Origin: a phage
Reading direction: 5' to 3' (one strand)
Sequence record: PZ445448.1
DNA: 64,000 nucleotides
Shown: positions 498-14,078 of the stretch, one piece after another
Layout of the letters: each line of letters starts with the position of its first letter
Numbering within the stretch: the stretch's first letter is position 1
The notes under the pieces: model-generated
Databases searched by the model: none
What the model saw: the letters and a program-made list of their open reading frames with translations, nothing else
What the model was told of the DNA's origin: nothing
Made by a program: the position numbers and the translations under genes

Positions 498-1184
498 ATG
501 GCAGAGATTAAGTCGGATGTTAACCACATCCACACTCTGCCAGATTTTGTTCAGGGAGGTCTTGACTACCTACCTGGAGATTTTCTGGCTGAGAAGGTTA
601 ATTTAGTCACATTCTTAACCGTATACCTTAAAAGGTTGGAGGATGTTGATAAGATGCTGGTAGGTTTGGCTGAAGGAAGATTGCTTAACAATGCCAGCGG
701 AAGATACCTTGACGAAGTTGGTAATCAGCTTGGTATTCTTAGGAATGGACTTTCAGATGCTGATTTTCGTGCCACACTAATTATTCAGCAGGCTGCAGCA
801 TCAAGGGGCGGGACTCGCGAAGATGTCATCTCCACCTTGCGACAATTGTTCGGAAGAGACAATTTCGATACGTGGAAAGGAGACAACTTCAGGTTTGACA
901 TAAATATTAGAAAAACTTGCTTTGACATATTGCAGTCTATCGATCAGATCTTAGATATGCTACCATTACCTTGTCATTTGCGTCTTACAGAATCGCAAGG
1001 GCAAGCTTTTGGTTTTGAAGGGGACTCTACAGCTCTTGGCTTCGGATCAGTGTGGGAAGAAAGCCAATTCGGAGTTGGTGGGCTGGCTACTTTGCTATAT
1101 GTTCCTGACGTAAGACCTGATTGGGACACCACAACCATTTATTGTGAAAGTATTACAGTAAACGCAACTAGACAGGAGGGTTAA
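498..1184 (+). CDS. hypothetical virion/baseplate-region protein
   Basis: 228 aa ORF, ATG preceded by AAGGCGGCGAG; ATGA overlap with next gene; position in tail module. Confidence 0.5.
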   Translation: MAEIKSDVNHIHTLPDFVQGGLDYLPGDFLAEKVNLVTFLTVYLKRLEDVDKMLVGLAEGRLLNNASGRYLDEVGNQLGILRNGLSDADFRATLIIQQAAASRGGTREDVISTLRQLFGRDNFDTWKGDNFRFDINIRKTCFDILQSIDQILDMLPLPCHLRLTESQGQAFGFEGDSTALGFGSVWEESQFGVGGLATLLYVPDVRPDWDTTTIYCESITVNATRQEG

Positions 1185-3256
1185 TGGCAACAGCTGTTTT
1201 TAAACCTTACCGTGATTACTCTACAATGGCTGCACAGTTTCATTACCGAACAGTTCAGGATACTGCCGTTCCTGGTAGGGATTATAATCATGTTGAGGGC
1301 GATATAACTATCCCAGTTGGGGCAACAAGTATTGAGATCCCCGTGGAAATTGTTGACAAATTACCCAACAGGTTGCCAAGAAGCTTCTTTATGGAGTTTT
1401 CATCAAAATCCCAAGGGGTAATGATTGGAACACAAAGGGCGAAATGTACAATAGTTTCAGATGAGAATCTTGACAGGATATCTTGGGATACTGTTGAGGA
1501 GAGAATGTTTCACCCAAGGTATTGGGTTACAACTACTCAGCAGACTGAAAGTACCTGTATTGTTGCAGATAACAACTGTTGTATTAACCGTTTAGTGTCA
1601 AGAACATATGGAGGTATGGCTGGGTGTATTTGGGAAACAGTTGACAAGTATGACCATTTCGGCATTGGGTTTGATGATCACTATGAGATGAGAAACACCA
1701 AGCTCTGGTTCAGAATGTCAATAACCAACGCCAGCAACTTCTCCACTCCTGAAAAGATGATTATGACTGTAGACCTTGTTGATGGCACAATCATCTATGT
1801 TCCTTTAGCTCAATATGCTGTCAGCATCTCAGAGGATAAGAATGTTGCAGAAATTCATATTGATTTTGAGGACTGCGTCGGGATGGACCAGAACAACAAC
1901 ATGATGGGTGTTGATCCTCGGCAGGTGAGAAGGATTTTAATACCACTCATGCCTAAAGACTGGGTAAGTAATAGCACAGACCCGAGAACGGAAAATGTAG
2001 AGTGTGAGTTGCGCCTAGATCTGCTTCAGCCAGACACAGGCTGGAAAATGATGCAACTTAACAATATTCAGGTTAAAGAGCACGACGTTGGGATCTGCAC
2101 CGCATATGACGATATGTGGAACGTATCTCCTTTAAGGGTGTTGAACAATATCAAGCGTCTGGGCTATACCGGAACCATAAACCATTATGTTGGTATGAGT
2201 CATTATTATGACTACACATGGTCAGGAACCCAATGGTCTATAAACAGAACAGGGGCGCTAAACGCTGCAGCTTATAAATGGCATGATGATTTTATGTACA
2301 ATGCCAAACGACATAACTTCGACGTTATGCAATCTGTAAGTTTTGAGCTTTTCAGCGATGCCTGCCCGTTGGAATGGACCCAAAGAGACTGGAACGATAA
2401 CTACGCTAAAACAGGGTATACACCCTGTAGCTACCTCCTGTCTCCAACCATTGAAGAGGGTATGAATTTCCTTACTGCAGTATTTAAGAATTTTGCATCA
2501 GCCGCTATGAGAAACAACCTGCCAGTGATTATGCAGGTTGGTGAACCGTGGTGGTGGTACAATACCGATACTCGTAGACCTTGTATTTATGATTACCCTA
2601 CAAAACAGGCGTTTTATGATGAGACAGGCGAGTATGCATTAGATATTGGGACTATTGACGATCCTAAAACTGGCGGTGTTTACGATAAGTATGTAGCATT
2701 TTGTCGTGGTAAGCTTGGCGCTCGTATTGCGGCTATTTCAAAGGCAATAAAGGCACACGCTGCATCAGCTCAGATGACAGCTCTGCTGTTTTTCCCAACC
2801 ATTATGGAAACCGAGCTTACGCAAAAGCTTAACCTTGCTGACCAATATAAAAAGGAAGCAGGTGCTCTTGATTTCTTCTGCACCGAGTGCTACGATTGGG
2901 TGATGCAGGGAGGTATTGAAAAGGCAAAAGAGTCTGTAAACATACCTATCGTTAAGTTAGGTTGGCAACCGTCTGAAATACAATACCTTGCAGGGTTCGT
3001 TCCTAGTAAAGAGCTTGCTCCGGTATATGGTTACGACCCAACCAGGAATTACCAAGAATTTTTATGGAGATGTATTTGCGGAAACATGGCAACTATAGAG
3101 TATAGATATCCTGAGGTAAAACAGTATGTGTGGGCATACCCGCAAGTAATGTCTGACAGCATCACTGTTACCGCTAGAGATTCTACCGTGCTTCATATGG
3201 GGCAGGTTGCTCTGAAAGGGTATGTAGAAGATGTTGTCCCGCCAGACTTCTCATAA
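1184..3256 (+). CDS. hypothetical structural protein (690 aa)
   Basis: Long ORF, RBS GACAGGAGGG upstream; coupled to upstream gene; position in tail module. Confidence 0.5.
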   Translation: MATAVFKPYRDYSTMAAQFHYRTVQDTAVPGRDYNHVEGDITIPVGATSIEIPVEIVDKLPNRLPRSFFMEFSSKSQGVMIGTQRAKCTIVSDENLDRISWDTVEERMFHPRYWVTTTQQTESTCIVADNNCCINRLVSRTYGGMAGCIWETVDKYDHFGIGFDDHYEMRNTKLWFRMSITNASNFSTPEKMIMTVDLVDGTIIYVPLAQYAVSISEDKNVAEIHIDFEDCVGMDQNNNMMGVDPRQVRRILIPLMPKDWVSNSTDPRTENVECELRLDLLQPDTGWKMMQLNNIQVKEHDVGICTAYDDMWNVSPLRVLNNIKRLGYTGTINHYVGMSHYYDYTWSGTQWSINRTGALNAAAYKWHDDFMYNAKRHNFDVMQSVSFELFSDACPLEWTQRDWNDNYAKTGYTPCSYLLSPTIEEGMNFLTAVFKNFASAAMRNNLPVIMQVGEPWWWYNTDTRRPCIYDYPTKQAFYDETGEYALDIGTIDDPKTGGVYDKYVAFCRGKLGARIAAISKAIKAHAASAQMTALLFFPTIMETELTQKLNLADQYKKEAGALDFFCTECYDWVMQGGIEKAKESVNIPIVKLGWQPSEIQYLAGFVPSKELAPVYGYDPTRNYQEFLWRCICGNMATIEYRYPEVKQYVWAYPQVMSDSITVTARDSTVLHMGQVALKGYVEDVVPPDFS

Positions 3257-3268
3257 TCAGGAGATAAA

Positions 3269-4309
3269 ATGTCAAAACCTAGTTTTCCATTAGAGATTTG
3301 GGCAGAGGAGGATCAGGTTCTGCCTAACACCCACAGACAGAACAGGCTACGCCCGATTGATGATTTGTGGAGAAAAGGTTGGGATCTTGGTCAAAAGCCC
3401 TCATGTGAAGAACTTAACTATATTTTCAATATGCTCGGGACTTGGGCAAAATACATCGCTGACGAGCAGATTCCCGCTCAAGAAGGCCGTTATCTGGTAC
3501 GTGATAATAACTTGAGTGATCTTTTGAACATTCCTGTTGCCCGTAGAAACCTTGGGATTATTACTAAGGAAGAGGCAGACGCCAGGTATGTAAAAGTTAC
3601 AGGTGATACAATGACAGGCCCATTGGGTTTGCAACGTATCAACTTTAAAGCTGCCGAGTCAGATAAGGCTTGGATAGAGACAACTATTGGCCCAGATAAG
3701 ACAACTCTCGACTTTGGGTTAAGTGATAATACCGGGTCGTTTGATGATGGTGGTACATCTACAGTGGATGCGTTCCGTTGGAGATTCCAGCCAACTCAGC
3801 CGGATATTAATCCAGAGTTCACTTTGATGTACCTTAACGCGATCACGGCTAACCGTGCGCTGTTGAAAGTGGTAGGCAATGTTGAAGTTGTCGATAACAT
3901 GAGGTGCAATAACCTTACTATCAGCAATACAGCGACATTCACCAACTGTAATGTGGCTAGTCAGTTGACGGCTGGGTCAGTGTATGTTAATGGTGGTGCA
4001 AGTTGTGACAGTATGGTTGTAAGAAGCCAGCACTGTGTTGTCGGTAACAGAAATGTGGTTCGCTCTGTGAACGGAGTGACGGCTAACGGTAACGGTGATG
4101 TAACGATCACTATCCCGCAGACAGGTGTGCAAGACATCAGAATCGGTGCAAGACTTGTGGACGGAGTTTCTGAATCTCCAATCCGCAACGGCTACGTTGT
4201 CACAGGCTGGCATTTCGGTGACAAAAAAGAGATGCGTGGTTCAACCTACTGGGCAGGACCTTTACAAAAACTTGTAAATGGTCAATGGATCACTGTTAAT
4301 TATGCATAG
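3269..4309 (+). CDS. tail fiber protein, P2 gpH-like C-terminal domain
   Basis: C-terminus ...YWAGPLQKLVNGQWITVNYA resembles the P2 H fiber end (PIQKYINGTWYNV, recalled from memory); RBS AGGAGATAAA; followed by Tfa-like chaperone. Confidence 0.65.
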   Translation: MSKPSFPLEIWAEEDQVLPNTHRQNRLRPIDDLWRKGWDLGQKPSCEELNYIFNMLGTWAKYIADEQIPAQEGRYLVRDNNLSDLLNIPVARRNLGIITKEEADARYVKVTGDTMTGPLGLQRINFKAAESDKAWIETTIGPDKTTLDFGLSDNTGSFDDGGTSTVDAFRWRFQPTQPDINPEFTLMYLNAITANRALLKVVGNVEVVDNMRCNNLTISNTATFTNCNVASQLTAGSVYVNGGASCDSMVVRSQHCVVGNRNVVRSVNGVTANGNGDVTITIPQTGVQDIRIGARLVDGVSESPIRNGYVVTGWHFGDKKEMRGSTYWAGPLQKLVNGQWITVNYA

Positions 4310-4323
4310 ATCGGAGGACTAGC

Positions 4324-4908
4324 ATGAAAATACTTCAAGAGTTTAAACTTTACCAACCGGGATCTGGCGAATACCGCACCAACAAGGAAACCAAGGAGCT
4401 GACCCCTCAAGAGGTTGAGGATTACACAGCATACACTGGGTATTTTTTACGTAATGATGATGGCGATTGGTATGTGCAGTCACGAACATTACGACAAGAA
4501 AATCCGGGGTGTATCTTCCTACTTGTTGACGAGAAGGGAATTCTTAAGACATCTACAGAAGAACCTGATGCCTTATGGCCTGCTCCAGGTCTTCGTGTGG
4601 TTATCGCCAAAAAAGAAGAGGTACCAGAAAACATTATGCTTCACCACGACGCTTTGCGTTTAGTTGGTGATGAATTTGTCACAGACAATGAATTCTTTGT
4701 TCAACAGGCAGAGGGTGTCATAGAGACAGAACTTGCTTGGGCTACTGCTAGAATTGGTGCCTATCAAGACATGATTGACCTTGAATATGATCTTACTGAT
4801 GACCAGAAACGTAACATCAGAGATTTGAAAATGTACAGGGTAAAACTTCTTGAAATAGATACATCTAAAGCCCCTGACATTTTCTTCCCGGAGCGACCTA
4901 CCCTCTAA
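4324..4908 (+). CDS. tail fiber assembly chaperone (Tfa-like)
   Basis: C-terminal KMYRVKLLEIDTSKAPDIFFPERP matches the conserved Tfa C-terminal signature (YRV..L..VDTS.APDI.WP); RBS GGAGGA. Confidence 0.7.
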   Translation: MKILQEFKLYQPGSGEYRTNKETKELTPQEVEDYTAYTGYFLRNDDGDWYVQSRTLRQENPGCIFLLVDEKGILKTSTEEPDALWPAPGLRVVIAKKEEVPENIMLHHDALRLVGDEFVTDNEFFVQQAEGVIETELAWATARIGAYQDMIDLEYDLTDDQKRNIRDLKMYRVKLLEIDTSKAPDIFFPERPTL

Positions 4909-4919
4909 GAGGAGGTGTT

Positions 4920-5234
4920 GTGGAGTTGGATTTGGCGGCATTGTACGGTATCTGCATGGGTACCGTTGTCCCGATCTGTGTATGGGCTTTCAACCAGTGG
5001 CACACCAAATGGAAAGGCATTTCCAAGAGGTTGGATGAACTGGAGAAAGACCTCATCTTAGTGAAAAACAGTATGGTTACAAAAGATAAACTTGATTCCG
5101 TTATCGAGACCCGGTTAAGTAAGCTAGAGGCCGATATTAACGACCTTAAGCAGGATGTCAGGACAGATGTCTCCGGTATCCGAGCTGATGTACAAAAGAT
5201 TTTGCACATGCTCGTAGAGCATAGTAAAAGGTAA
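4920..5234 (+). CDS. hypothetical protein, N-terminal hydrophobic segment plus coiled coil
   Basis: ORF beginning at GTG 4920 right after AAGAGGAGG; true start uncertain (GTG/TTG/ATG at 4956). Confidence 0.35.
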   Translation: MELDLAALYGICMGTVVPICVWAFNQWHTKWKGISKRLDELEKDLILVKNSMVTKDKLDSVIETRLSKLEADINDLKQDVRTDVSGIRADVQKILHMLVEHSKR

Positions 5235-5243
5235 ACAAAGGTC

Positions 5244-5277
5244 AGAACGGAAAGGACTCCGTTCTTGCATTTTGTTC
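5244..5277 (+). terminator. rho-independent terminator candidate
   Basis: Hairpin GAACGG-aaaggact-CCGTTC followed by TTGCATTTTGTT. Confidence 0.45.
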
Positions 5278-5320
5278 CCTAAAGTGTTAAAATAGTCCTA
5301 AGGAATTTTCTCAGGAGAAC

Positions 5321-6367
5321 GTGATGACTAAACCAGTTATCCCTCTTGATATTTGGGCCAATCAGGATGTTGTGCTTGAAAATACGGGAGAGTTGAATAA
5401 GTCTCAACCAAAAAAAGAAGAGAGATTGAAAGGTTGGGATATGACACAAAGAGTGGCATGTGAAGTTGTTAACTTTGAACTTCACATGCTTTCTGCGTGG
5501 TTAAAGCATTTAACAGAAGATGTTGTCCCGGGATGGGATAATAGATTCTTAAGGGTCACTAATAATCTAGCAGACGTTCCAGACAAAGCTGCTGCACGTC
5601 AAGTTCTCAATGTATACTCGCCTGAAGAAATGGACGATCTGTATGTTGACAAGTCTGGAGACATAATGACTCAGACTCAAACTTTAGGTCTTCAAAGAAT
5701 CGAGTTTGCATCTGCGTCAACAGACAATGCGGCAATATATACCACCATAACTCCAGACAAGACGACGATGGATTTCTGGATTATGGACAACATCGGTGGT
5801 GCTGACGGCACAGACCTTGATGATCCTTCTCACCAAATAGACGGGTTCCGTTGGAGATTTCAACCTTCTGGTGGGCAGCCTGTGTTTTCGGCTATGAAGC
5901 TCAATGCTATAACTGCCAACCGTGCAAGACTGGCTATCCAAGGGAATCTTGAATGCAACGATGCAAAAAGTTCCTCTGCAAATGCCAATGCGGTCACGAT
6001 ACCAAGAGCCACTGTTAATGGACAACAATCCTGCGGAAGCGCTCAAATAGGTGGAAGAGTTGATTGTAACGATGAAACCGTCAGGGGCCAATATGCAACA
6101 GTTGGTGGAAGAAACGTGGTCCGCAGGGTAAATGGTAACGGCGCAGACAGTAGTGGTAACCTTACTATTCCTATGCCTAGCAGAGGGGTTGATGATGTAA
6201 GGATAGCAAACCGTTTTAAAACCACCTACAGAGAGTCAAGAGTCTACCCTGGACATGTGATGTGCTCTGGTAACTACGCTTATAAACACCCTTATCAAGG
6301 TGATTACTGGACAGGTGCTATCCAAAAACTTGTAAATGGTCAATGGATCACTATATCTTATGCTTAA
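5321..6367 (+). CDS. tail fiber protein paralog, P2 gpH-like C-terminal domain
   Basis: Shares N-terminus (PLDIWANQDVVLENT vs PLEIWAEEDQVLPNT) and C-terminus (YWTGAIQKLVNGQWITISYA) with 3269-4309; middle divergent; RBS CAGGAGAA. Confidence 0.65.
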   Translation: MMTKPVIPLDIWANQDVVLENTGELNKSQPKKEERLKGWDMTQRVACEVVNFELHMLSAWLKHLTEDVVPGWDNRFLRVTNNLADVPDKAAARQVLNVYSPEEMDDLYVDKSGDIMTQTQTLGLQRIEFASASTDNAAIYTTITPDKTTMDFWIMDNIGGADGTDLDDPSHQIDGFRWRFQPSGGQPVFSAMKLNAITANRARLAIQGNLECNDAKSSSANANAVTIPRATVNGQQSCGSAQIGGRVDCNDETVRGQYATVGGRNVVRRVNGNGADSSGNLTIPMPSRGVDDVRIANRFKTTYRESRVYPGHVMCSGNYAYKHPYQGDYWTGAIQKLVNGQWITISYA

Positions 6368-6378
6368 AAAGAGGGTAA

Positions 6379-6645
6379 ATGAAACTAACTCAGTTTTTAT
6401 GGGGACTGGTTGCGGCATCTGATGACCCTACGAAAGTGTCCCAATCTAAGCTATGGTCGAACATAGGCATGGCGGTGATGACTGGGGTGTTTATTCATAT
6501 GGGGTATAATGATACGCTTCCTGAATGGTATGCGTGGATATACGCGCCTTCAGTAGCTTGCCCCCAGCTTATTAGCAAATTCATCTCGCTCCGGTGGGGT
6601 TGCCAGCACCCTGACCACGTTAAAAACGAAGAGCAAAAAGCTTAA
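6379..6645 (+). CDS. hypothetical protein (88 aa)
   Basis: ORF with RBS AAAGAGGGTAA directly after second fiber gene; partly hydrophobic. Confidence 0.4.
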   Translation: MKLTQFLWGLVAASDDPTKVSQSKLWSNIGMAVMTGVFIHMGYNDTLPEWYAWIYAPSVACPQLISKFISLRWGCQHPDHVKNEEQKA

Positions 6646-6654
6646 GGAGAAATC

Positions 6655-8400
6655 ATGGCGCAAGACATGACAAGCTTTGAGCAGGCGGTAGATCAAGTAA
6701 TTGTTGATTCTGAACGTTTGCACCTGATTGTCAACGGTAACGCTGTGGATGAAGTTGTCGTAGAGGATGGGACCACCATCCCTACGGTACGAAAAGCCAT
6801 GCTTGACACCCTTTATTTTAAAACGCCACCGATCCCTTGGGCGTATGGTGCATCCACAACAGTTTTTAACCAGCTGTACGAGTTTAAAGGGGACACAGGC
6901 CCTCAGTGGTGGTACGCTCCCGCAGCATCAAAATCTAACCCGGTTAGAATGCCAGCAGATCCTTCACAATCTCCAAACTGGAGATTATATACCGATTCTG
7001 CAGTAATGGCAAAATACTACGCAAAACTTAACAGTCCGAGGTTCGAAGGTGACCCGCGAGTACCTACGCCTCCAATGGACGACAAATCCGAGTCTATAGC
7101 AAACACAGAGTTTGTTGTTGACTATGTGGATAGCATATTTGAAGCCATGGAGGGAATGAAAGTTACTGTAGGGTCTTTGGTGGTAAAAGGTCTTACAGAA
7201 CTTGCTAACACTATAGTTGGTGGCACACTCACCTTACATGGGCCTGTTAATGGAGCAGATTCTACTGCACGCTTCAGGAACCTAATCCTCACGGCAAATA
7301 CTTCTACACTTACTTTTGCGTGGAGTGATCCTAAGCATGCAGACTGGAGAAGCACAGAGCTGCAACCTCATGAAGTGTCCACCTACAGGGTTATAGCTGA
7401 CACTATAACTTCTGGGAAACCAGTGGCTAATAATAACGATGTGCATTTTGATGGTCTAGGTAATAACTTTTTTGACTACGTGTACATTCGTGGTAATGCC
7501 ATGAAGGCAGCAACCGAACCGACATTGCAGGTAGATGGAACCACCAGGGTTAAGAACCTTGAGGTGACAGGCACTGTTACAGGGATAACCTACTCTGTCG
7601 ATGGCACCATGATTTACCCTAGCTATATTGAAAGCACGGGGGACGCATTAATAAATGGTGATTTAGAAGTTGGCGGATCTGTAGTTATTCGAGGTACAGC
7701 CTCTATCCAAAACATAGCTCTGAATACCCTAAGAGTCAATGAGCGTGCAACTTTTGAAGGGGAAGGGCTTACAGCCAACAAAGGTGTAATTACCGAGCTG
7801 ACAACCACTACTTTAACTGCAACAACTGCAAACTCTGAAAACTGCAACGTTACCAGAAACTTGCAGGTAAATGGAGATGTTAGTTTAAACGCAGCAGGGA
7901 CGGGCACCACCTACCTTCACAACCTTGAAATATCCGGCACAGTGACTGGGTGGCTGCCAGACTTCTCTAATGTCAACTTTGTTTGTAATGGCATTAACTC
8001 CAGTGGCAAGATAACCACCTCTCAAGAAATTGAGGCGGGTAAAACCATTACTGCCCCTACTTTCCACGCAGGAAAGGTAGATTTTGATTTAGAGGAGGTT
8101 GACGCGTCCAGTGGGACATGGACACCTAACGGGCAGGCCAGTATGTATGTTGTCCACGCGAAAGGGGATTTTACAATAGGACAATGGCCTGGTACATCAG
8201 CGGAAGATAAACCTTATCCATTCACTGCGGTTATCTATGTCATTCAGGATGCTGTAGGTCACAACGTGACTTTGCACGATAAGTATGCTATCCTGTCGGC
8301 AACGCCTGTTATTAATAACAAGGCTAATAGTGTTACCTTGCTGCAATTAACATATTGTGGTGTTGGTGATATCGTAGACGTAGTAATTGCACAACGTTAA
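6655..8400 (+). CDS. tail fiber/spike-like protein (581 aa)
   Basis: RBS AAGGAGAAA; Thr/Gly/Asn-rich repetitive stretches (TGTVTGITYSVDG, LTTTTLTATTANSENCNVT) typical of fibrous virion proteins. Confidence 0.55.
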   Translation: MAQDMTSFEQAVDQVIVDSERLHLIVNGNAVDEVVVEDGTTIPTVRKAMLDTLYFKTPPIPWAYGASTTVFNQLYEFKGDTGPQWWYAPAASKSNPVRMPADPSQSPNWRLYTDSAVMAKYYAKLNSPRFEGDPRVPTPPMDDKSESIANTEFVVDYVDSIFEAMEGMKVTVGSLVVKGLTELANTIVGGTLTLHGPVNGADSTARFRNLILTANTSTLTFAWSDPKHADWRSTELQPHEVSTYRVIADTITSGKPVANNNDVHFDGLGNNFFDYVYIRGNAMKAATEPTLQVDGTTRVKNLEVTGTVTGITYSVDGTMIYPSYIESTGDALINGDLEVGGSVVIRGTASIQNIALNTLRVNERATFEGEGLTANKGVITELTTTTLTATTANSENCNVTRNLQVNGDVSLNAAGTGTTYLHNLEISGTVTGWLPDFSNVNFVCNGINSSGKITTSQEIEAGKTITAPTFHAGKVDFDLEEVDASSGTWTPNGQASMYVVHAKGDFTIGQWPGTSAEDKPYPFTAVIYVIQDAVGHNVTLHDKYAILSATPVINNKANSVTLLQLTYCGVGDIVDVVIAQR

Positions 8401-8450: not shown

Positions 8451-11400
8451 ATGCTTCCAATCCCTTTGCTAAAACTTGGTCGTCATTTCCTCGATAAGAG
8501 GGGTGGAATTAAGGAACTTGCTGTTCTGTCATACCCAATAGACAACAGTGATGGTACAAGCAACACAGTATCCTATGTAAATAGCTTAGCTATACTTTTT
8601 GATGATGGTCAGCTTAATATTACTGGCTATAATAGGTTCGGAGAGTGTCGGACTGGAGATCTTGATACAATAAACTATCCTAATGAGGCAGCTTGGAACG
8701 TAGACCATGTTTGGAGAGCTGACCGTGCATTTGTAATCCGCACATTCGATAATAAATTTTTCTATATTGGTTGCACAGCTGGTCTTATCGGATCGGAGGC
8801 AGCAGGTGGAAACGATGTTTGTGTCAGAGAGTGGACACCTTTGCCGGAACAGATCGTAACAGGGTTGCATTTGGACACCCATCCTGAGAGACTTGTTGAA
8901 GTAATGGGTGGCGTAAACAATACAGTGTGGGTAATTGCTGCACCAGAGGCTGATGGTATGCTTCACCTGTACGGCTCTGGCAATAATACTTACGGCTCTC
9001 TTCATGTTGACAAAAATCAGCATGCAACCCCTGTAAAGATTGGTGAGACATCGGAAAATCCTGAAACAGGTCCTTGGAAAAACCCAAGCATCAACTGCGA
9101 GGTGCATGACAACTCTGTTATTTTCGGTGGTCCTAGAGGTTTCTGGATTGCTGGATACGACTTTCTGAGAAATAACAGTAGAAACGACCTTGTTTGGCCT
9201 CCTGTGCAGATTACTCGTAACGATTTGAGGGGCATTCCTGCAGATGAGGAGTGGAAAGGGTTTATGTGCGGTCCTAACGGGGCAATAATTGCCACACAGA
9301 GGATGCATAGACCCGATGACCAGCAGCTTGTTAACGTATTTTATGGTCAAAACATTTGGGGAGATGATACATGGCGGGAACTGAATATCACCTACACCCA
9401 TGAGGTAATAATGGCTCGTGGGTACGGCACAAGTGGCATTTTCTTCAATAATGGCACCAAGCAGTATCGTGGATTCTCTCGCAACTTGTGTAATGATATT
9501 GGTGCACAATCTGCAAACAATAGTCCTAGGTCCGATTTTATCCACTATCAAGCTCTTGCTACAGCTAAATATGTTGAGCAACGCCTGCCAGTTAGCTGGA
9601 CAGAGAGTGTTTATTTCCAAGGCATCCATAGAGAAGGTTTCTTAGGGACCTTTACTGTTGTTAATGGTAAACTTTGGTGGTCAGGCATCCCAAGGGGAAG
9701 TTTTGCAGGCTCTAACAACCTGTTTGGAGGCAGACTTAATAGCCAGGGGTTCACAGAGGTTCCTGAGAATTGGTATAAAAATGTCCCGGTAGACAGTTGG
9801 GGTGTTGAGGATATTTTCGACGTTAACGGTGTTAGCAGCGTTAGCAATATTTACATTGGTGACACGGTCAAGATGAAGTTGAAGCCTCAGCCAGAGGGGG
9901 CTACGTTCATTATTGACAAGATTGAACTGGTAAATGCTGCAGGTACGGTTGTTACAGATGCAAATTACCAATTCTCCACCAACTGGAACCACGGCGGGGC
10001 CAACGAAGTTGTTGTTACCCAGTATAACAGAAATGTTAACAGACGTGGCCTGTACTCTGTAAAAATAACCTATCATGACAAGCATGGCACAGGCAGAACC
10101 CATACGACAAGGACTTTGAACTGGAACACCATAGTTCCTGCGTATCCGTCCAACGGCAAGTGGCATACTGTCGGTAGAAACAAACAGTTCCATGTCAACG
10201 ATACTGTATACTTCGGGCTTAACGCAGCTCAACCTGCTGTAGAAGGCGATACATCGTATATAGTACGACTCCATAGAATGGATGCCGGGTCTGTAACCTA
10301 CGATGTGACTCAGGAGATCTACGATCAGAGACGTACCACGTATGACAATGTTGTGAAAACACAAGCCTTGTGGGAGTTCAACCCTAACGGCAGAGGCGGT
10401 AAAATGTTGCAGGTCAACGAGCAAAACGGGACATCGTTGACTGTCCATGAACATCCAGATCCTTGGCCTGATCCTGGAAAACCTAACTCTGGTGCTCGTA
10501 CACTGAAAATTGTTAGCCATGATGCAGGATATTTCGGAATACGCTGGGAAGCCACAGTAAGATATGCCGACGGGACAACAAACAACATAGGGATCACCCT
10601 TGGTGGCACTAGTGAGGATAACTCCCTGAAAATTGCCTACACCCCTAGGGGCATCTCTATTGACAACATAGATGTTGTTCGCAACGGTTACGGCGATGTG
10701 AATGTCAAAGTTACTCTTGGCGAACATCTTGGTGGGGAAAGGATCATCATGTATGCCTTTGATCATGATCCGCGCACCAATGGGACTTATGCAAATCAGG
10801 CATGGAGTTATCTGATAAATGCACCTGAGCCGAATACTAAAGAGTTCTACTACGGTATGAAGCGAGATGTGTGCAAGAAAACAGGAACACATGACTGGAT
10901 TGCTATCTGCGTTAAAGATGAGCGCACAGCTTGGGATGAGCCTGTTAACAGATGGTTCATAGGTATTCCTACCAGAAGTGATAAGTATGTCGCAGAATAT
11001 ATTGTATGCATGGGCGGTACCAACCTAAACATGTGTTGGAACGAAGATGTAAACAAATACTCTGATTATGACTATATGAGGGATTACTCTTGTAATTTGT
11101 GGTTTAACCAAACTACAGGTTACCCTCCGCGTCAGGCAAGGGTAAATCCTGCAATCTTTACAGATACGCAGGTTTTCTTGACAAAACAGGCCAACGAGGT
11201 CCAGACCTTCAAGAACAAATACGACCCTAATAAGTGGTTCTATAACTGCTATGGGGCATTTTTCTGGGGACCTGGAGAATTACCTGGTGGTGGCTCTTGT
11301 TTTGAGGCTGCAACTTACGCCAGTGACAGATTTATGGGCCAGGTCAAGAAATACAAGATAATTCCAGGGCCTGAAACTTTAGGCAACGCTGTCGACCCCT

Positions 11401-14078
11401 ATATCATCATAAGTGATCTAAGATCGAACATGGATGGAACATCCATATCTATGCAAGTTCCGGTAACAAACGGATACAAGCGTGTTGTGATGATCATTAA
11501 GTGCGATCTGATAGGTAAGCAAGTTCTTGCAGAGAACGGAACTTCCACCCACCTATTTGAGACTGCTCTGCACTATCAGTTTGCTGATTCACCTTTTGCA
11601 GGGGATAAGAGAATATCTGACACAGACGCTGTGCGATGCAAGAAATTTATGCTAGGTGGTGGGTGGTGGTGGTATGAATTTGACTTAACAGACAAATTCA
11701 CCGACACGTCTAAAGTAGTGACGGGGCTTCGTCTAGACCTTGGCGAAAACATGCACAAAAGTGTTTGTGATGGCACCTACGGTGACCCAACAATCTACTT
11801 AAAGTATGTCTCTTTTGAGCACCCAGAGGATGTTGTTTATGGTCCAAAACTGAGACTGTTTGGCAATTGGATTGCTAAAGACAGGGTAGGTATGGGCAAG
11901 AAGGTAAGAGGCTTCTTAATGGATGCCGGTACAGAGGACATGCTAGTCAATGCAGTGTGGCCTGAATTACCTGGGACTCAGTGGAACAACTCAGCCAAAT
12001 CTATAAACTGGTTCAATATCCACAGGGCTATGTGGACAACCAACTGTTACCTGTGGAAAGAGCTGAATGACGGCGCTTTCGGGTTCACAGGCGGCAGAAG
12101 AATGGCAATCATTTGCTGGACAACGTTGCAAAGATGTTATGACCATGACTACGAGATTGGAGGTAGGGCATGGAAAAATATTAGGGATAGAATCATAACC
12201 AACTTTGCAGATCCTAACGGTGGTGGAGCGTATGGCTTCGACTGCAGCAGGCTCATCCATTTGAACGGATCCTCTGCCTACAAGAAAGAAGGTTACTCTG
12301 GATCTATGATAGAATGGGGCCTGGTGAAAGATGCTCGCGTGCTGATGGGTCAACAACTTGCTGCTGCAATAGGTCCTAATGCAGTGCAATCTGTTAAACC
12401 TGCGTGGTTTGATATCCCATTGTGGTCATCCGGTACACCAGGAACTGCTGCAATCAACCCTACCACGGGGGATCTGGAAATCTCTTGGGAGGACTTGAAG
12501 CAGGTTGGAGGCTGGGATAAAACAGGGTATCAGGTCCAGTGGTGGAGGGCTGATGGATCTTTAGCCGCTGATGAGTTTGTTAAGGACAATTTCTACACCA
12601 TGTCCTCTGCAAAAGCACAGCAATTATTTGGTCAGGCCACTCCGTCAACGATCACCATGTCTATGTGCTGTAAAGACAACAGGACTGGAGCTTTGGGGCC
12701 AAGGGTTGCTAAGGTTTTCTCAGGTATTAAATGGAATCTCCCTGTTCAAAGTGTTTCATGGAAGCAAATAGGTGATAACAAGCTGCTGGTTACCCCTGCC
12801 TGTCAGTTCAACGCAACTCTTAACGTTGATCCTGCTGTTGCGGCAAACTCAGCTAAAGCTTCTGACTTCTCTGTGTCTAACACTGCTATGGCAGATGTGA
12901 GGAAGATTGACACACTGAACGCCAGAATTACCTGTAAAAACACTTATGGCACATTCCAAATCATCAACAACTTCACAGATGCTGATTCTAAGGTAGTAAG
13001 GACAGCAAGCCAGACTCTGAGTTTAGGAACTCTGGCCTATGCGGCCCTGATCACCGAGCAGTCGGCAACACTCCAAGGAGGTGGTGTAGGCAAGTCCATT
13101 GCAACACCTGTGTGGAAGCCAAATGAGTGGGTTGTGTTTGATTTGACTGTGGACTTCTCCAGCGATAATAACTGGACATGGGTAAGGAATTGTTTGTCAC
13201 AATTGATGGGCGGTCCAAGCTCCGTTAGTGATAGTCACGACTCTACTGACCCGAGTGTGTTCCAGGTAGGTAAAACTCACCCAGAGACTGGAGAAACGTT
13301 GCCTGACAGGAAGTATGCGTTGGTTTGCATCTCTTACGGGAAGGCAGATGTCACATTCTCAGGGACACACACTTATAACGGAACTTACAACTTCTCAAGG
13401 AAGTATAGTCTCAAAGCAGGGAACATTATAGACGAGGTCGGTGTGCTGTATAATCCGGGCAACGGCATAGGGATTGTGGGCGGTAAACTGCAGATGCAGG
13501 AACCTTCTATCACCCCTTCCAACGTATCCGGGATTAGAAAGACTTGGGAAAGTAGTAATACCAACATTGCAACAGTGGATGCCACCACAGGGCTGGTAAC
13601 ATTTAAAGCTGCTGGGAATGTCACCATAAAGTTTGTAGTTAGAGATGATGCAGGCCGCAAAACGTCTTCAACATCGTTTACTGTCAGACAGATGGCACCT
13701 CAGTGGTTTATTTGGGAAGGAAATCCTCTTGACGGGGCTTACCCTAGACCTGCAGGAACGTCCAATATGAGGGTCTTTACCGGTCCGGTCATGAACAATC
13801 CGACCACAACCACCAACCCTACATTTTTTGGTGCTTACATACCTGAAATTATTGGCCTACCAAGGAACCAGATACAACTGCTTTTCGGAGCAGGTGTTGA
13901 TGGTCTAGCCACTTTTGGGTACAGTGACAACATTGATGCAGCCAGAAGCTCGGGTTGGATTGGATTTAAGTTTCAGTGGAACCCTGGTGGTAGAACATTA
14001 GGTGTTGCAAGCATAGGTGTTATGCTACCTGGTAACCAGCAATACCATCTCGAAGCTTATACAAACTTCCCTAGTTAA
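8451..14078 (+). CDS. giant virion protein (1875 aa), putative host-specificity/tail fiber protein
   Basis: 5.6 kb uninterrupted ORF with RBS GGAGAACACA; a C-terminal stretch (residues approx. 1685-1740, EPSITPSNVSG...TSSTSFTV) looks Ig-like by eye; only shadow ORFs on the opposite strand. Confidence 0.5.
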   Translation: MLPIPLLKLGRHFLDKRGGIKELAVLSYPIDNSDGTSNTVSYVNSLAILFDDGQLNITGYNRFGECRTGDLDTINYPNEAAWNVDHVWRADRAFVIRTFDNKFFYIGCTAGLIGSEAAGGNDVCVREWTPLPEQIVTGLHLDTHPERLVEVMGGVNNTVWVIAAPEADGMLHLYGSGNNTYGSLHVDKNQHATPVKIGETSENPETGPWKNPSINCEVHDNSVIFGGPRGFWIAGYDFLRNNSRNDLVWPPVQITRNDLRGIPADEEWKGFMCGPNGAIIATQRMHRPDDQQLVNVFYGQNIWGDDTWRELNITYTHEVIMARGYGTSGIFFNNGTKQYRGFSRNLCNDIGAQSANNSPRSDFIHYQALATAKYVEQRLPVSWTESVYFQGIHREGFLGTFTVVNGKLWWSGIPRGSFAGSNNLFGGRLNSQGFTEVPENWYKNVPVDSWGVEDIFDVNGVSSVSNIYIGDTVKMKLKPQPEGATFIIDKIELVNAAGTVVTDANYQFSTNWNHGGANEVVVTQYNRNVNRRGLYSVKITYHDKHGTGRTHTTRTLNWNTIVPAYPSNGKWHTVGRNKQFHVNDTVYFGLNAAQPAVEGDTSYIVRLHRMDAGSVTYDVTQEIYDQRRTTYDNVVKTQALWEFNPNGRGGKMLQVNEQNGTSLTVHEHPDPWPDPGKPNSGARTLKIVSHDAGYFGIRWEATVRYADGTTNNIGITLGGTSEDNSLKIAYTPRGISIDNIDVVRNGYGDVNVKVTLGEHLGGERIIMYAFDHDPRTNGTYANQAWSYLINAPEPNTKEFYYGMKRDVCKKTGTHDWIAICVKDERTAWDEPVNRWFIGIPTRSDKYVAEYIVCMGGTNLNMCWNEDVNKYSDYDYMRDYSCNLWFNQTTGYPPRQARVNPAIFTDTQVFLTKQANEVQTFKNKYDPNKWFYNCYGAFFWGPGELPGGGSCFEAATYASDRFMGQVKKYKIIPGPETLGNAVDPYIIISDLRSNMDGTSISMQVPVTNGYKRVVMIIKCDLIGKQVLAENGTSTHLFETALHYQFADSPFAGDKRISDTDAVRCKKFMLGGGWWWYEFDLTDKFTDTSKVVTGLRLDLGENMHKSVCDGTYGDPTIYLKYVSFEHPEDVVYGPKLRLFGNWIAKDRVGMGKKVRGFLMDAGTEDMLVNAVWPELPGTQWNNSAKSINWFNIHRAMWTTNCYLWKELNDGAFGFTGGRRMAIICWTTLQRCYDHDYEIGGRAWKNIRDRIITNFADPNGGGAYGFDCSRLIHLNGSSAYKKEGYSGSMIEWGLVKDARVLMGQQLAAAIGPNAVQSVKPAWFDIPLWSSGTPGTAAINPTTGDLEISWEDLKQVGGWDKTGYQVQWWRADGSLAADEFVKDNFYTMSSAKAQQLFGQATPSTITMSMCCKDNRTGALGPRVAKVFSGIKWNLPVQSVSWKQIGDNKLLVTPACQFNATLNVDPAVAANSAKASDFSVSNTAMADVRKIDTLNARITCKNTYGTFQIINNFTDADSKVVRTASQTLSLGTLAYAALITEQSATLQGGGVGKSIATPVWKPNEWVVFDLTVDFSSDNNWTWVRNCLSQLMGGPSSVSDSHDSTDPSVFQVGKTHPETGETLPDRKYALVCISYGKADVTFSGTHTYNGTYNFSRKYSLKAGNIIDEVGVLYNPGNGIGIVGGKLQMQEPSITPSNVSGIRKTWESSNTNIATVDATTGLVTFKAAGNVTIKFVVRDDAGRKTSSTSFTVRQMAPQWFIWEGNPLDGAYPRPAGTSNMRVFTGPVMNNPTTTTNPTFFGAYIPEIIGLPRNQIQLLFGAGVDGLATFGYSDNIDAARSSGWIGFKFQWNPGGRTLGVASIGVMLPGNQQYHLEAYTNFPS

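What the first reader, a model, noticed from the sequence alone, without database searches (positions are those of the whole stretch)
3269..6367. Duplicated tail-fiber cassette with conserved ends and divergent middle
Two fiber genes (3269-4309, 5321-6367) share N-terminal and C-terminal blocks (both end ..QKLVNGQWIT(V/I)(N/S)YA, P2 gpH-like) but differ in the central region. Only the first is followed by a recognisable Tfa chaperone. This may reflect two receptor specificities or a recombination-driven host-range cassette.
Basis: seen in the sequence. Interest (0 to 1): 0.45.

Follow-up and report, generated by a model that had tools for sequence, protein, structure and literature searches.

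The report
Paired short tail fibres of rV5-like phage
The two look-alike fibre genes are the already described pair of short tail fibres (rV5 gp33 and gp30, with one shared assembly chaperone) found in every rV5-like coliphage, so the finding is real but ordinary; the one addition here is that the two copies repeatedly overwrite each other's receptor-binding ends by gene conversion.

Summary
The window is an rV5-like coliphage (Vequintavirus), 99.5% identical to phage JohannBauhin over 3000-6700. The two ORFs are real. A (3269-4309) is the rV5 gp33 ortholog; B (5324-6367, ATG start, not GTG 5321) is gp30. They are 43% identical over their full length (E 7e-94).

"Conserved ends, divergent middle" is only partly right. 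The best-conserved long block is central (residues 111-205, 57%). The troughs lie at 41-100, 206-250 and 296-330.

Only A is followed by a Tfa chaperone (4324-4908, PF02413), and the 64-kb window holds no second Tfa.

The pair is already published. Kropinski 2013 found gp30, gp32 and gp33 in virions and suggested two LPS chemotypes. Maffei 2021 called them two short-tail-fibre paralogs plus a chaperone, Mu GpS/GpU-like.

It is not a hypervariable cassette: A is at least 98.6% and B mostly at least 95% identical across about 115 genomes.

New here: the 3' ends evolve in concert.
- A 30-nt exact patch (4265-4294 = 6323-6352) sits in otherwise saturated synonymous sites.
- A diverged relative has a different patch sequence, again shared by both of its copies.
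- Three more distant two-fibre phages have whole tips homogenised between paralogs, up to 110 nt exact.

Novelty: already known. Interest: low.

The parts
1184..3256 (+). Context: rV5 gp34 ortholog, 690 aa, an N4 gp65-like receptor-binding protein (non-contractile tail sheath TIM barrel plus Calx-beta)
   Evidence: Pfam PF23845 4e-80, PF23844 1e-12, PF03160 7e-6. Synteny with rV5 gp034.
3269..4309 (+). Short tail fibre paralog A (346 aa), ortholog of rV5 gp33
   Evidence: ORF. phrog_4465 2e-171. 99.4% identical to rV5 gp033. Annotated 'short tail fiber protein' in JohannBauhin.
3269..3592 (+). N-terminal baseplate-wedge docking domain of A (residues 1-108)
   Evidence: phmmer hit to the phiTE short tail fibre, 9CUY residues 1-111, E 1.4e-19. 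In phiTE this part binds wedge protein 1 (PMC11972413).
4127..4306 (+). Mu GpS-like C-terminal tip domain of A (residues 287-346)
   Evidence: 5YVQ residues 440-501, E 2e-6. Pairwise 36% identity, E 7e-8. Family profile E 1.8e-10.
4265..4294 (+). 30-nt patch identical to 6323-6352 (encodes QKLVNGQWIT); a gene-conversion footprint
   Evidence: Longest exact A/B match. P(run of at least 10 identical codons) = 5e-5, while synonymous sites are otherwise saturated. The patch co-varies in both paralogs of L015.
4324..4908 (+). Tail fibre assembly chaperone (Tfa, 194 aa), ortholog of rV5 gp32; the only one in the window
   Evidence: PF02413 8.5e-12 over residues 121-192. phrog_136 2e-36. No paralog by tblastn.
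4920..5234 (+). 104-aa protein with an N-terminal transmembrane segment and a coiled coil (rV5 gp31 ortholog); function unknown; syntenic in all relatives
   Evidence: phrog_5345 1e-48. Synteny. tblastn with the Av-05 homolog, E 5e-17.
5244..5275 (+). Terminator-like hairpin plus T-rich tail, in the only sizeable intergenic gap of the locus, just upstream of fibre B
   Evidence: Consensus scan: 8-9 bp stem at 5244-5265, then TGCATTTTGT. Sequence. Pattern match only.
5324..6367 (+). Short tail fibre paralog B (347 aa), ortholog of rV5 gp30; it occupies the slot of a 157-aa membrane-protein gene in single-fibre relatives
   Evidence: ORF. phrog_4465 4e-166. 99.4% identical to rV5 gp030. Synteny comparison.
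6179..6364 (+). Divergent Mu GpS-like tip of B (residues 286-347)
   Evidence: Colinear with Mu GpS 438-502 at 28% identity, pairwise E 0.005. No closer donor among 50,697 phage records; the next best is 43%.
6323..6352 (+). Second copy of the 30-nt identical patch
   Evidence: (family D1).
6379..6645 (+). 88-aa membrane protein (rV5 gp29 ortholog); not Tfa-like
   Evidence: phrog_1322 3e-32. No Pfam or NCBIfam hit. 51% identical to the Av-05 87-aa membrane protein.
6655..8400 (+). Context: 581-aa lateral tail fibre (rV5 gp28 ortholog)
   Evidence: phrog_4549 2e-249. Orthologs carry PF26208/PF26209.

Best explanation
This is the conserved short-tail-fibre module of rV5-like (Vequintavirus) coliphages.

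SHOWN:
- There are two full-length paralogous fibre genes, A (rV5 gp33) and B (gp30). Each has a phiTE/phi92-fibre-III-type N-terminal wedge-docking domain and a Mu-GpS-type C-terminal tip. One Tfa chaperone gene (gp32) lies after A.
- The pair is fixed in every sampled two-fibre lineage. The A clade and the B clade are each monophyletic for the first 287 residues.
- B sits where single-fibre relatives carry a 157-aa membrane-protein gene.
- Both genes are under strong purifying selection. B evolves about three times faster than A.
- The 3' tip regions are repeatedly homogenised between the two paralogs by gene conversion. In this window's lineage only the last 30 nt are affected; in three more distant phages the whole tip is.

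FROM THE LITERATURE (on rV5, Mu and phi92, not on this sequence):
- gp30, gp32 and gp33 are all virion proteins.
- The homologous phi92 fibre III forms six downward-pointing trimers on the wedge and is proposed to mediate irreversible binding.
- Vequintavirinae need the LPS outer-core glucose.
- Mu-type Tfa stays bound to the fibre tip.

INFERRED:
- Both fibres are made and mounted on the baseplate through their distinct N-terminal domains.
- The single Tfa nucleates trimerisation of both tips. This common dependence keeps the extreme C-terminus alike and tolerates, or favours, tip conversion.
- In this lineage the two different tips give two LPS-core binding specificities for the irreversible adsorption step.
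For: Identity and orthology:
- 99.5% DNA identity to JohannBauhin and gene-for-gene synteny with rV5 gp34-gp28.
- Paralogy: 43% identity, E 7e-94.

Domains:
- phiTE short tail fibre N-terminus: E 1.4e-19 for A and 1.3e-9 for B.
- Mu GpS tip: E 2e-6 for A, profile 1.8e-10, and 0.005 pairwise for B.
- Tfa: PF02413, and the only one in the window.

Selection:
- A at least 98.6% and B mostly at least 95% identical across about 115 genomes.
- 166 variable nt against 12 variable aa in A; 34 variable aa in B.

Synteny: single-fibre genera have fibre, Tfa, 104-aa, 157-aa, 87-aa, then a fibre. The 157-aa gene is absent from the window.

Gene conversion:
- Synonymous sites between A and B are saturated (61 identical codons against 63.6 expected), yet one run of 10 identical codons occurs, P 5e-5.
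- L015 has a 29-nt A=B patch that differs from the window's at three synonymous sites. The chance of this arising independently is about 6e-5.
- L017 has a 110-nt exact A/B tract, and L014 and L018 reach 76-86% in 60-nt windows, against a background of about 50%.
- Tree incongruence: in the body, the A clade and the B clade each get 100% bootstrap. In the tip, all L014/L017/L018 A and B sequences form one clade at 100%.
- Differences between L014 and L017 co-vary in both paralogs.

Literature: PMC3606486 (virion mass spectrometry, 42.3% identity, two LPS chemotypes); PMC8594841 (paralogs plus chaperone, Mu GpS/GpU, LPS core glucose); PMC13450770 (phi92 gp147 is fibre III); PMC12143355 (short-tail-fibre density in Bas49/Bas54); PMC9608196 (modular Tfa, retained in Mu virions).
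Against: - No experiment assigns a receptor to either paralog.
- In L014/L017/L018 both paralogs carry essentially the same tip. Dual specificity therefore cannot be the general reason for keeping two fibres.
- Low-resolution cryo-EM of two Vequintavirus phages reported three fibre densities near the baseplate and fitted a single short-tail-fibre model. Separate sites for A and B are not demonstrated (PMC12143355).
- B's tip differs from A's over about 40 residues (26% identity), so one Tfa serving both is an assumption.
- Whether the duplication predates the split from single-fibre genera is unresolved.
- The distant two-fibre loci come from metagenomic and SRA assemblies.
Confidence: 0.62

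Rival explanations
1. Positional rather than receptor specialisation. The two paralogs are kept because they dock at different baseplate positions or give different reach or geometry through their distinct N-terminal and shaft parts. They recognise the same or overlapping LPS-core receptor, and tip differences in the rV5 lineage are secondary.
For: N-terminal domains are consistently paralog-specific: A-B 30-48%, A-A' 75-80%, B-B' 60-62%. A-B identity over residues 1-110 (38%) is lower than either paralog's identity to single-copy orthologs (44-56%). In L014/L017/L018 both paralogs carry 93-100% identical tips yet both genes are retained. All tested Vequintavirinae show the same LPS-core dependence (PMC8594841).
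Against: In the window's lineage the tips are strongly different (23-26% over about 40 residues), and that difference is conserved across about 115 genomes and in L015. This argues for selection on a distinct B tip. Published cryo-EM did not report two distinct short-tail-fibre sites (PMC12143355).
Confidence: 0.25
2. Host-range cassette in the reader's sense: a locus that is frequently exchanged between phages by recombination at conserved end blocks, producing many alleles of the middle or tip.
For: Tail-fibre tips are mobile in general. A's tip is 58.6% identical to tips of roughly 52-kb Salmonella phages. Tip and body have different histories in the wider clade.
Against: No allelic diversity: A at least 98.6% and B mostly at least 95% identical in about 115 genomes. 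Residue changes in B are scattered and conservative, not concentrated in the tip. No intermediate or donor for the B tip exists in the phage collection. Only 8 protein clusters were found in the 5.8-billion-protein search, all from the same clade. The detected exchange is between the two copies within a genome, not between phages.
Confidence: 0.07
3. B was not made by duplication of A. It was captured from an unsampled related phage and replaced the 157-aa gene. Shared A/B features are then ancestral or due to later conversion.
For: A is closer to single-copy orthologs (47-51%) than to B (44%). Quartet sites rooted with a phi92-like fibre, body only: A+outgroup 6, A+B 3, B+outgroup 2. B arrives with its own upstream intergenic region and hairpin.
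Against: No donor lineage was found anywhere. B evolves faster than A, which alone can explain the distances. Paralog-specific shared residues cluster in the shaft, where A-B identity (57%) exceeds either paralog's identity to the outgroups. This concerns origin only and does not change the functional reading.
Confidence: 0.25
4. B is a redundant or decaying duplicate that is not expressed or not assembled.
For: It has no adjacent chaperone. A terminator-like hairpin lies just upstream.
Against: The ORF is intact with a good Shine-Dalgarno site in every genome. Purifying selection is strong. The gene is retained across lineages whose synonymous sites are near saturation. gp30 was detected in rV5 virions by mass spectrometry (PMC3606486).
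Confidence: 0.02

Closest known systems
rV5 gp33 / gp32 / gp30 (Vequintavirus short tail fibre paralogs and chaperone; Kropinski 2013 PMC3606486, Maffei 2021 PMC8594841)
   Same: Orthologous gene for gene: 99.4% protein identity for both fibres. Same order gp34-gp33-gp32-gp31-gp30-gp29-gp28 and same 42-43% paralog identity.
   Different: Nothing substantive; this window is a member of that group. The concerted evolution of the 3' ends shown here did not appear in the literature searches I ran.
Phage Mu GpS / GpU tail fibre and Tfa (PDB 5YVQ), with the G-segment inversion switch
   Same: The C-terminal tip of the fibres is homologous to GpS 438-502, including the P-x-QK-x-x-NG-x-W motif. A PF02413 chaperone follows the fibre gene. 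The receptor is the LPS core (literature).
   Different: Mu expresses one of two alternative tips by DNA inversion, each with its own Tfa. Here two complete fibre genes lie in direct orientation with a single Tfa, both are virion proteins in rV5, and no inverted repeats flank the tips. The N-terminal docking domain is of the phiTE type, not the Mu type.
phi92 gp147 (fibre III) and phiTE short tail fibre (PDB 9CUY/9MJN)
   Same: Homologous N-terminal wedge-docking domain, same position after the wedge genes, followed by a Tfa. phi92 gp147 forms six downward-pointing trimers and is proposed to mediate irreversible binding (PMC13450770).
   Different: Those phages have one such fibre, while this phage has two paralogs. 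The phiTE fibre has a long coiled coil and Ig-like domains instead of the short shaft.
T4 gp12 short tail fibre
   Same: Analogous role proposed: LPS-core binding and irreversible adsorption. Kropinski 2013 reported HHpred similarity.
   Different: No sequence-level match to gp12 chains in my PDB searches. The chaperone system differs (gp57A in T4, from general knowledge). T4 has a single gene.

Membership tests
Vequintavirus short-tail-fibre module (rV5 gp33-gp32-gp31-gp30-gp29) | Orthology and synteny with the rV5 locus | tested here: met
   98.5% DNA identity to rV5 over 3269-6645. Both fibres are 99.4% identical in protein, in the same gene order.
Vequintavirus short-tail-fibre module (rV5 gp33-gp32-gp31-gp30-gp29) | Two full-length paralogs about 42-43% identical | tested here: met
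   43% identity, E 7e-94, colinear over 346/347 aa.
Vequintavirus short-tail-fibre module (rV5 gp33-gp32-gp31-gp30-gp29) | Both fibres and the chaperone present in virions | not testable with these tools
   Reported for rV5 by mass spectrometry (PMC3606486). Not measurable on sequence.
Mu GpS/GpU-type fibre plus Tfa | C-terminal tip homologous to GpS | tested here: met
   A: E 2e-6 and 7e-8 pairwise. Family profile 1.8e-10. B alone is weak, E 0.005 pairwise at 28% identity, but colinear.
Mu GpS/GpU-type fibre plus Tfa | Cognate Tfa (PF02413) immediately downstream of each fibre gene | tested here: not met
   Met for A. Not met for B: the downstream 88-aa protein is a membrane protein with no Tfa similarity, and there is no second Tfa in the window.
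Mu GpS/GpU-type fibre plus Tfa | Alternative tips switched by an invertible segment | tested here: not met
   Both genes are complete and on the same strand. No inverted repeats flank the tip regions.
phiTE / phi92 fibre-III-type short tail fibre | N-terminal wedge-docking domain | tested here: met
   9CUY residues 1-111 against A 1-108, E 1.4e-19. B 1-83, E 1.3e-9. Profile 3.7e-29.
T4 gp12-type short tail fibre | Sequence homology to gp12 | tested here: not met
   No gp12 chain among PDB hits at E up to 1 for the single sequences or up to 0.01 for the profile. Only an HHpred similarity is reported in the literature.
Hypervariable host-range cassette (DGR-like or allelic tip exchange) | High allelic diversity of the tip among close relatives, or template/variable repeats | tested here: not met
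   At least 95% protein identity across about 115 genomes. Only 5 of 34 variable residues of B lie in the tip. The only repeats are the homologous A/B blocks.

The most novel reading that the evidence does not exclude
The paired short tail fibres form a self-editing two-slot system. Each paralog has a private baseplate-docking domain, which would give twelve short fibres or two distinct rings. Both depend on one virion-retained Tfa. Intragenomic gene conversion of the Mu-S-like tip repeatedly switches lineages between carrying one receptor specificity on both slots (L014/L017/L018-type) and two specificities (rV5-type). The invariant QKLVNGQWIT-coding patch would serve as the 3' homology anchor.
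Probability: 0.25. Interest if true: 0.45.

Novelty: already known. Interest (0 to 1): 0.2.

Why it matters
rV5-like phages are among the most commonly isolated broad-host-range coliphages and are used for typing and biocontrol of E. coli O157. Their irreversible-adsorption step is assigned to these short fibres. The pair itself is textbook for this group, so the finding adds nothing new.

The incremental point could guide fibre engineering. The bodies are stable and paralog-specific, while the tips are exchanged between the two copies. The natural swap unit is roughly the last 60 residues, together with a compatible Tfa.

It also cautions against assuming that two fibres always mean two receptors.

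Tried and rejected
1. AlphaFold2 monomer of fibre B with a 9-sequence alignment gave mean pLDDT 32.4 and pTM 0.23. It was unusable, so no fold search was run. This is expected for an intertwined trimer.
2. Sequence searches of Pfam and NCBIfam gave nothing for either fibre.
3. A 16-nt exact repeat (3226-3241 and 5515-5530) looked unlikely by chance. It is present in both places only in this window, not even in the 99.5% relative, and both copies encode EDVVP. I judged it a coincidence.
4. A donor search for B's tip in 50,697 phage records found nothing above 43% outside the genus. The 5.8-billion-protein search returned only 8 clusters, all from the same clade.
5. Rooting the duplication with a phi92-like fibre gave too few informative sites (3, 6 and 2) to decide. 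The 100% 'A+B' bootstrap is trivial for three clades in an unrooted tree, and I do not use it.
6. The supplement of the RBPseg paper, which might say which paralog was fitted into the cryo-EM density, is not held.
7. Mu-style inversion and DGR-style diversification were considered and rejected: same strand, no inverted repeats, no variability.
8. The promoter scan gave no more sites than shuffled sequence (15 against 10.7 +/- 3.3) and is not used. The hairpin at 5244-5265 is only a pattern match.
Full report
**What the window is.** The region 3000-6700 matches 116 phage records. 113 of them cover at least 80% of the query in one place, and the best places are 90-99.5% identical. The closest is Escherichia phage JohannBauhin (Vequintavirus) at 99.5%. 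The annotation of that record and of rV5 itself maps the window gene for gene:
- 1184-3256 is gp34, an N4 gp65-like receptor-binding protein (Pfam PF23845 4e-80).
- 3269-4309 is gp33.
- 4324-4908 is gp32.
- 4920-5234 is gp31.
- 5324-6367 is gp30.
- 6379-6645 is gp29.
- 6655-8400 is gp28.
- 8451-14078 is gp27.

**Checking the observation.** Both ORFs exist and are homologous along their whole length: 43% identity, 58% positives, E 7e-94. The quoted C-terminal motif is correct.

The start of the second gene is better placed at ATG 5324. AGGAG at 5313-5317 lies six nt upstream of it, and GTG 5321 is too close. Both public annotations use the ATG.

The description 'conserved ends, divergent middle' does not hold. 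Identity by block is:
- 38% for residues 1-110 (50% in the first 30);
- 57% for 111-205;
- 23% for 206-250;
- 53% for 251-295;
- 26% for 296-330;
- 75% for the last 16.

Only the first fibre is followed by a Tfa (PF02413, E 8.5e-12; phrog_136). tblastn of this Tfa and of Tfa proteins from relatives finds no second copy in the 64-kb window.

**What the proteins are.** Neither fibre hits Pfam or NCBIfam. Both belong to phrog_4465, 'tail fiber protein'.

Against solved structures, the N-terminal ~108 residues match the short tail fibre of Pectobacterium phage phiTE (9CUY/9MJN): E 1.4e-19 for A, 1.3e-9 for B, and 3.7e-29 for a family profile. The C-terminal ~60 residues match the tip of Mu GpS (5YVQ): E 2e-6 for A and 1.8e-10 for the profile. 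B alone gives only 28% identity, pairwise E 0.005, but the match is colinear.

The motif P-x-QK-x-x-NG-x-W-x-T/V is shared with Mu GpS and the phiTE fibre. The 'conserved C-terminal block' is therefore a family-wide structural motif, not in itself a mark of recombination.

Several points come from the literature:
- In phiTE the N-terminal part forms a globular joint on wedge protein 1 (PMC11972413).
- In phi92 the homolog gp147 is 'fibre III': six downward-pointing trimers on wedge protein gp145, proposed to mediate irreversible binding (PMC13450770).
- Mu-type Tfa proteins have a variable fibre-binding N-domain and a conserved trimerising C-domain, and they stay on the mature Mu fibre (PMC9608196, citing North 2019).

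**This is already published.** Kropinski et al. 2013 noted that gp30 and gp33 of rV5 are similarly sized and 42.3% identical, and that both resemble short tail fibres. [quoted passage not shown]

Maffei et al. [quoted passage not shown] They found no considerable allelic variation, a single copy in phi92-like phages and Phapecoctavirus, and dependence of all tested members on the LPS outer-core glucose (PMC8594841).

RBPseg (2025) saw density for this fibre class in two Vequintavirus virions at 7-9 Angstrom resolution (PMC12143355).

**Is it a variable host-range cassette? No.** tblastn gives A at 98.6% identity or better, and B mostly at 95% or better, in about 115 Vequintavirus records. Each record holds both copies, and nothing lies between roughly 60% and 90%.

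In seven genomes reaching down to 90% DNA identity, A has 166 variable nucleotides but only 12 variable residues. B has 34 variable residues across nine genomes. They are scattered and mostly conservative, with 5 in the tip.

**Comparative anatomy.** Single-fibre relatives (Avunavirus Av-05, Seunavirus GAP31 and a Salmonella phage, Mydovirus BIS47, and metagenomic L019) share one gene order. It runs: wedge genes, fibre, Tfa, a 104-aa gene, a 157-aa polytopic membrane gene (PF26221), an ~87-aa membrane gene, then a ~580-600-aa fibre.

In the window, fibre B occupies the slot of the 157-aa gene, which has no homolog in the window. B is preceded by the only sizeable intergenic gap of the locus, which contains a terminator-like hairpin at 5244-5265.

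A is closer to the single-copy orthologs (47-51%) than to B (44%). B is 37-43% identical to them.

**More distant two-fibre phages.** A search of the 5.8-billion-protein collection with B returned only eight clusters. Their contigs show the same two-fibre architecture in more diverged phages: L015/L016, L014, L017 and L018.

Compared with the window, L014 has A at 73%, B at 49%, Tfa at 48% and gp31 at 52%. The flanking proteins are at 63-79%. B and the chaperone are therefore the fastest-evolving parts of the locus.

**Concerted evolution of the 3' ends (the new element).**

1. In the window, synonymous sites between A and B are saturated: 61 identical codons at 152 identical residues, against 63.6 expected from codon usage. 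Yet the ten codons of QKLVNGQWIT are identical, giving 30 nt exact at 4265-4294 = 6323-6352. In simulation, P(longest run of at least 10) = 5e-5.

2. In L015 the synonymous sites against the window are near saturation (41-43% identical codons). There the same patch is again identical between that genome's A and B (29 nt), but it differs from the window's patch at three synonymous positions (CTT/CTG, GTA/GTC, CAA/CAG). The chance of this arising independently is about 6e-5. A fixed nucleotide motif cannot explain this, but gene conversion can.

3. In L014, L017 and L018 the whole Mu-S-like tip is homogenised between paralogs. Protein identity there is 93-100%, against 30-55% elsewhere. L017 has a 110-nt exact tract. 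L014 and L018 reach 76-86% in 60-nt windows, with different boundaries, over a background near 50%. Residues that differ between L014 and L017 (GGM/GSM, RA/RP, KKE/KEE) co-vary in both paralogs.

4. Trees are incongruent. For residues 1-287 the A sequences and the B sequences form separate clades, each with 100% bootstrap. For the tip, all A and B sequences of L014/L017/L018 form one clade (100%), and the window's B tip is a long-branch outlier.

The graded DNA identity, with synonymous differences inside the L014 tract, argues against assembly collapse.

**How it most likely works.** The following is shown: two stably maintained paralogs with private N-terminal docking domains, a single Tfa, purifying selection, and tip conversion.

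The following is inferred:
- Both fibres are mounted on the baseplate. This is supported for rV5 by virion proteomics.
- The one Tfa nucleates trimerisation of both tips. This shared dependence keeps the extreme C-terminus alike and makes tip conversion harmless or favoured.
- In the rV5 lineage the two different tips give two LPS-core specificities at the irreversible step.

The main rival is that the paralogs differ in position or geometry rather than in receptor. Lineages with identical tips on both fibres favour that reading.

Whether A and B occupy separate sites, share six sites or mix is not resolved by published maps.

**Origin of B.** Whether B arose by duplication of A with accelerated divergence, or was captured from an unsampled relative, is open. 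Rooting with a phi92-like fibre gives too few informative sites, and no donor was found.

**Verdict.** One half of the interpretation restates a published hypothesis, and the other half (a variable cassette) is not supported, although intragenomic recombination of the tips is. The feature is an already known, conserved module of a well-studied phage genus, so interest is low. The gene-conversion result is a modest addition that did not turn up in the literature searches I ran.

Noticed in passing
window 3000-6700, against GenBank MG0656xx records: About 16-21 records named 'Campylobacter phage', many with host given as C. jejuni, are about 99% identical to this E. coli rV5-like locus. They are probably coliphage contaminants or mislabelled hosts.
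   Followed up: no
window 4920-5234 and 6379-6645; L002 5449-5922: Small membrane-protein genes are embedded in the fibre locus of all Vequintavirinae: a 104-aa protein with a transmembrane segment and coiled coil, and an 88-aa membrane protein. Single-fibre genera also carry a 157-aa polytopic protein (PF26221) that this phage lacks, and fibre B sits in its place. In L014/L017/L018 the 88-aa gene is 118-126 aa. Functions are unknown.
   Followed up: partly
window 3226-3241 and 5515-5530: A 16-nt exact direct repeat (AGAAGATGTTGTCCCG) lies in the 3' end of the gp34-like gene and inside fibre B, out of register with the A/B homology. The two-place arrangement is unique to this window and absent even from the 99.5% relative, so it is most likely coincidence.
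   Followed up: yes
window 5244-5275: A terminator-like hairpin with a T-rich tail lies between the gp31-like gene and fibre B, in the only sizeable intergenic gap of the locus. It may split the fibre genes into two transcription units. A terminator is annotated under the fibre B match in phage Murica.
   Followed up: no
window 1184-3256: The 690-aa protein just upstream of fibre A combines a Calx-beta domain with N4 gp65-like non-contractile-sheath domains. The literature proposes this protein as the binder of the ECA/'N4 glycan receptor' in Vequintavirinae.
   Followed up: no
window 4127-4306 (tip of fibre A): A's Mu-S-like tip is 58.6% identical to the C-termini of tail fibres of roughly 52-kb Salmonella phages (SE13, birk, brorfarstad, UPF_BP2). 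The tip module therefore occurs in unrelated phage backbones.
   Followed up: no
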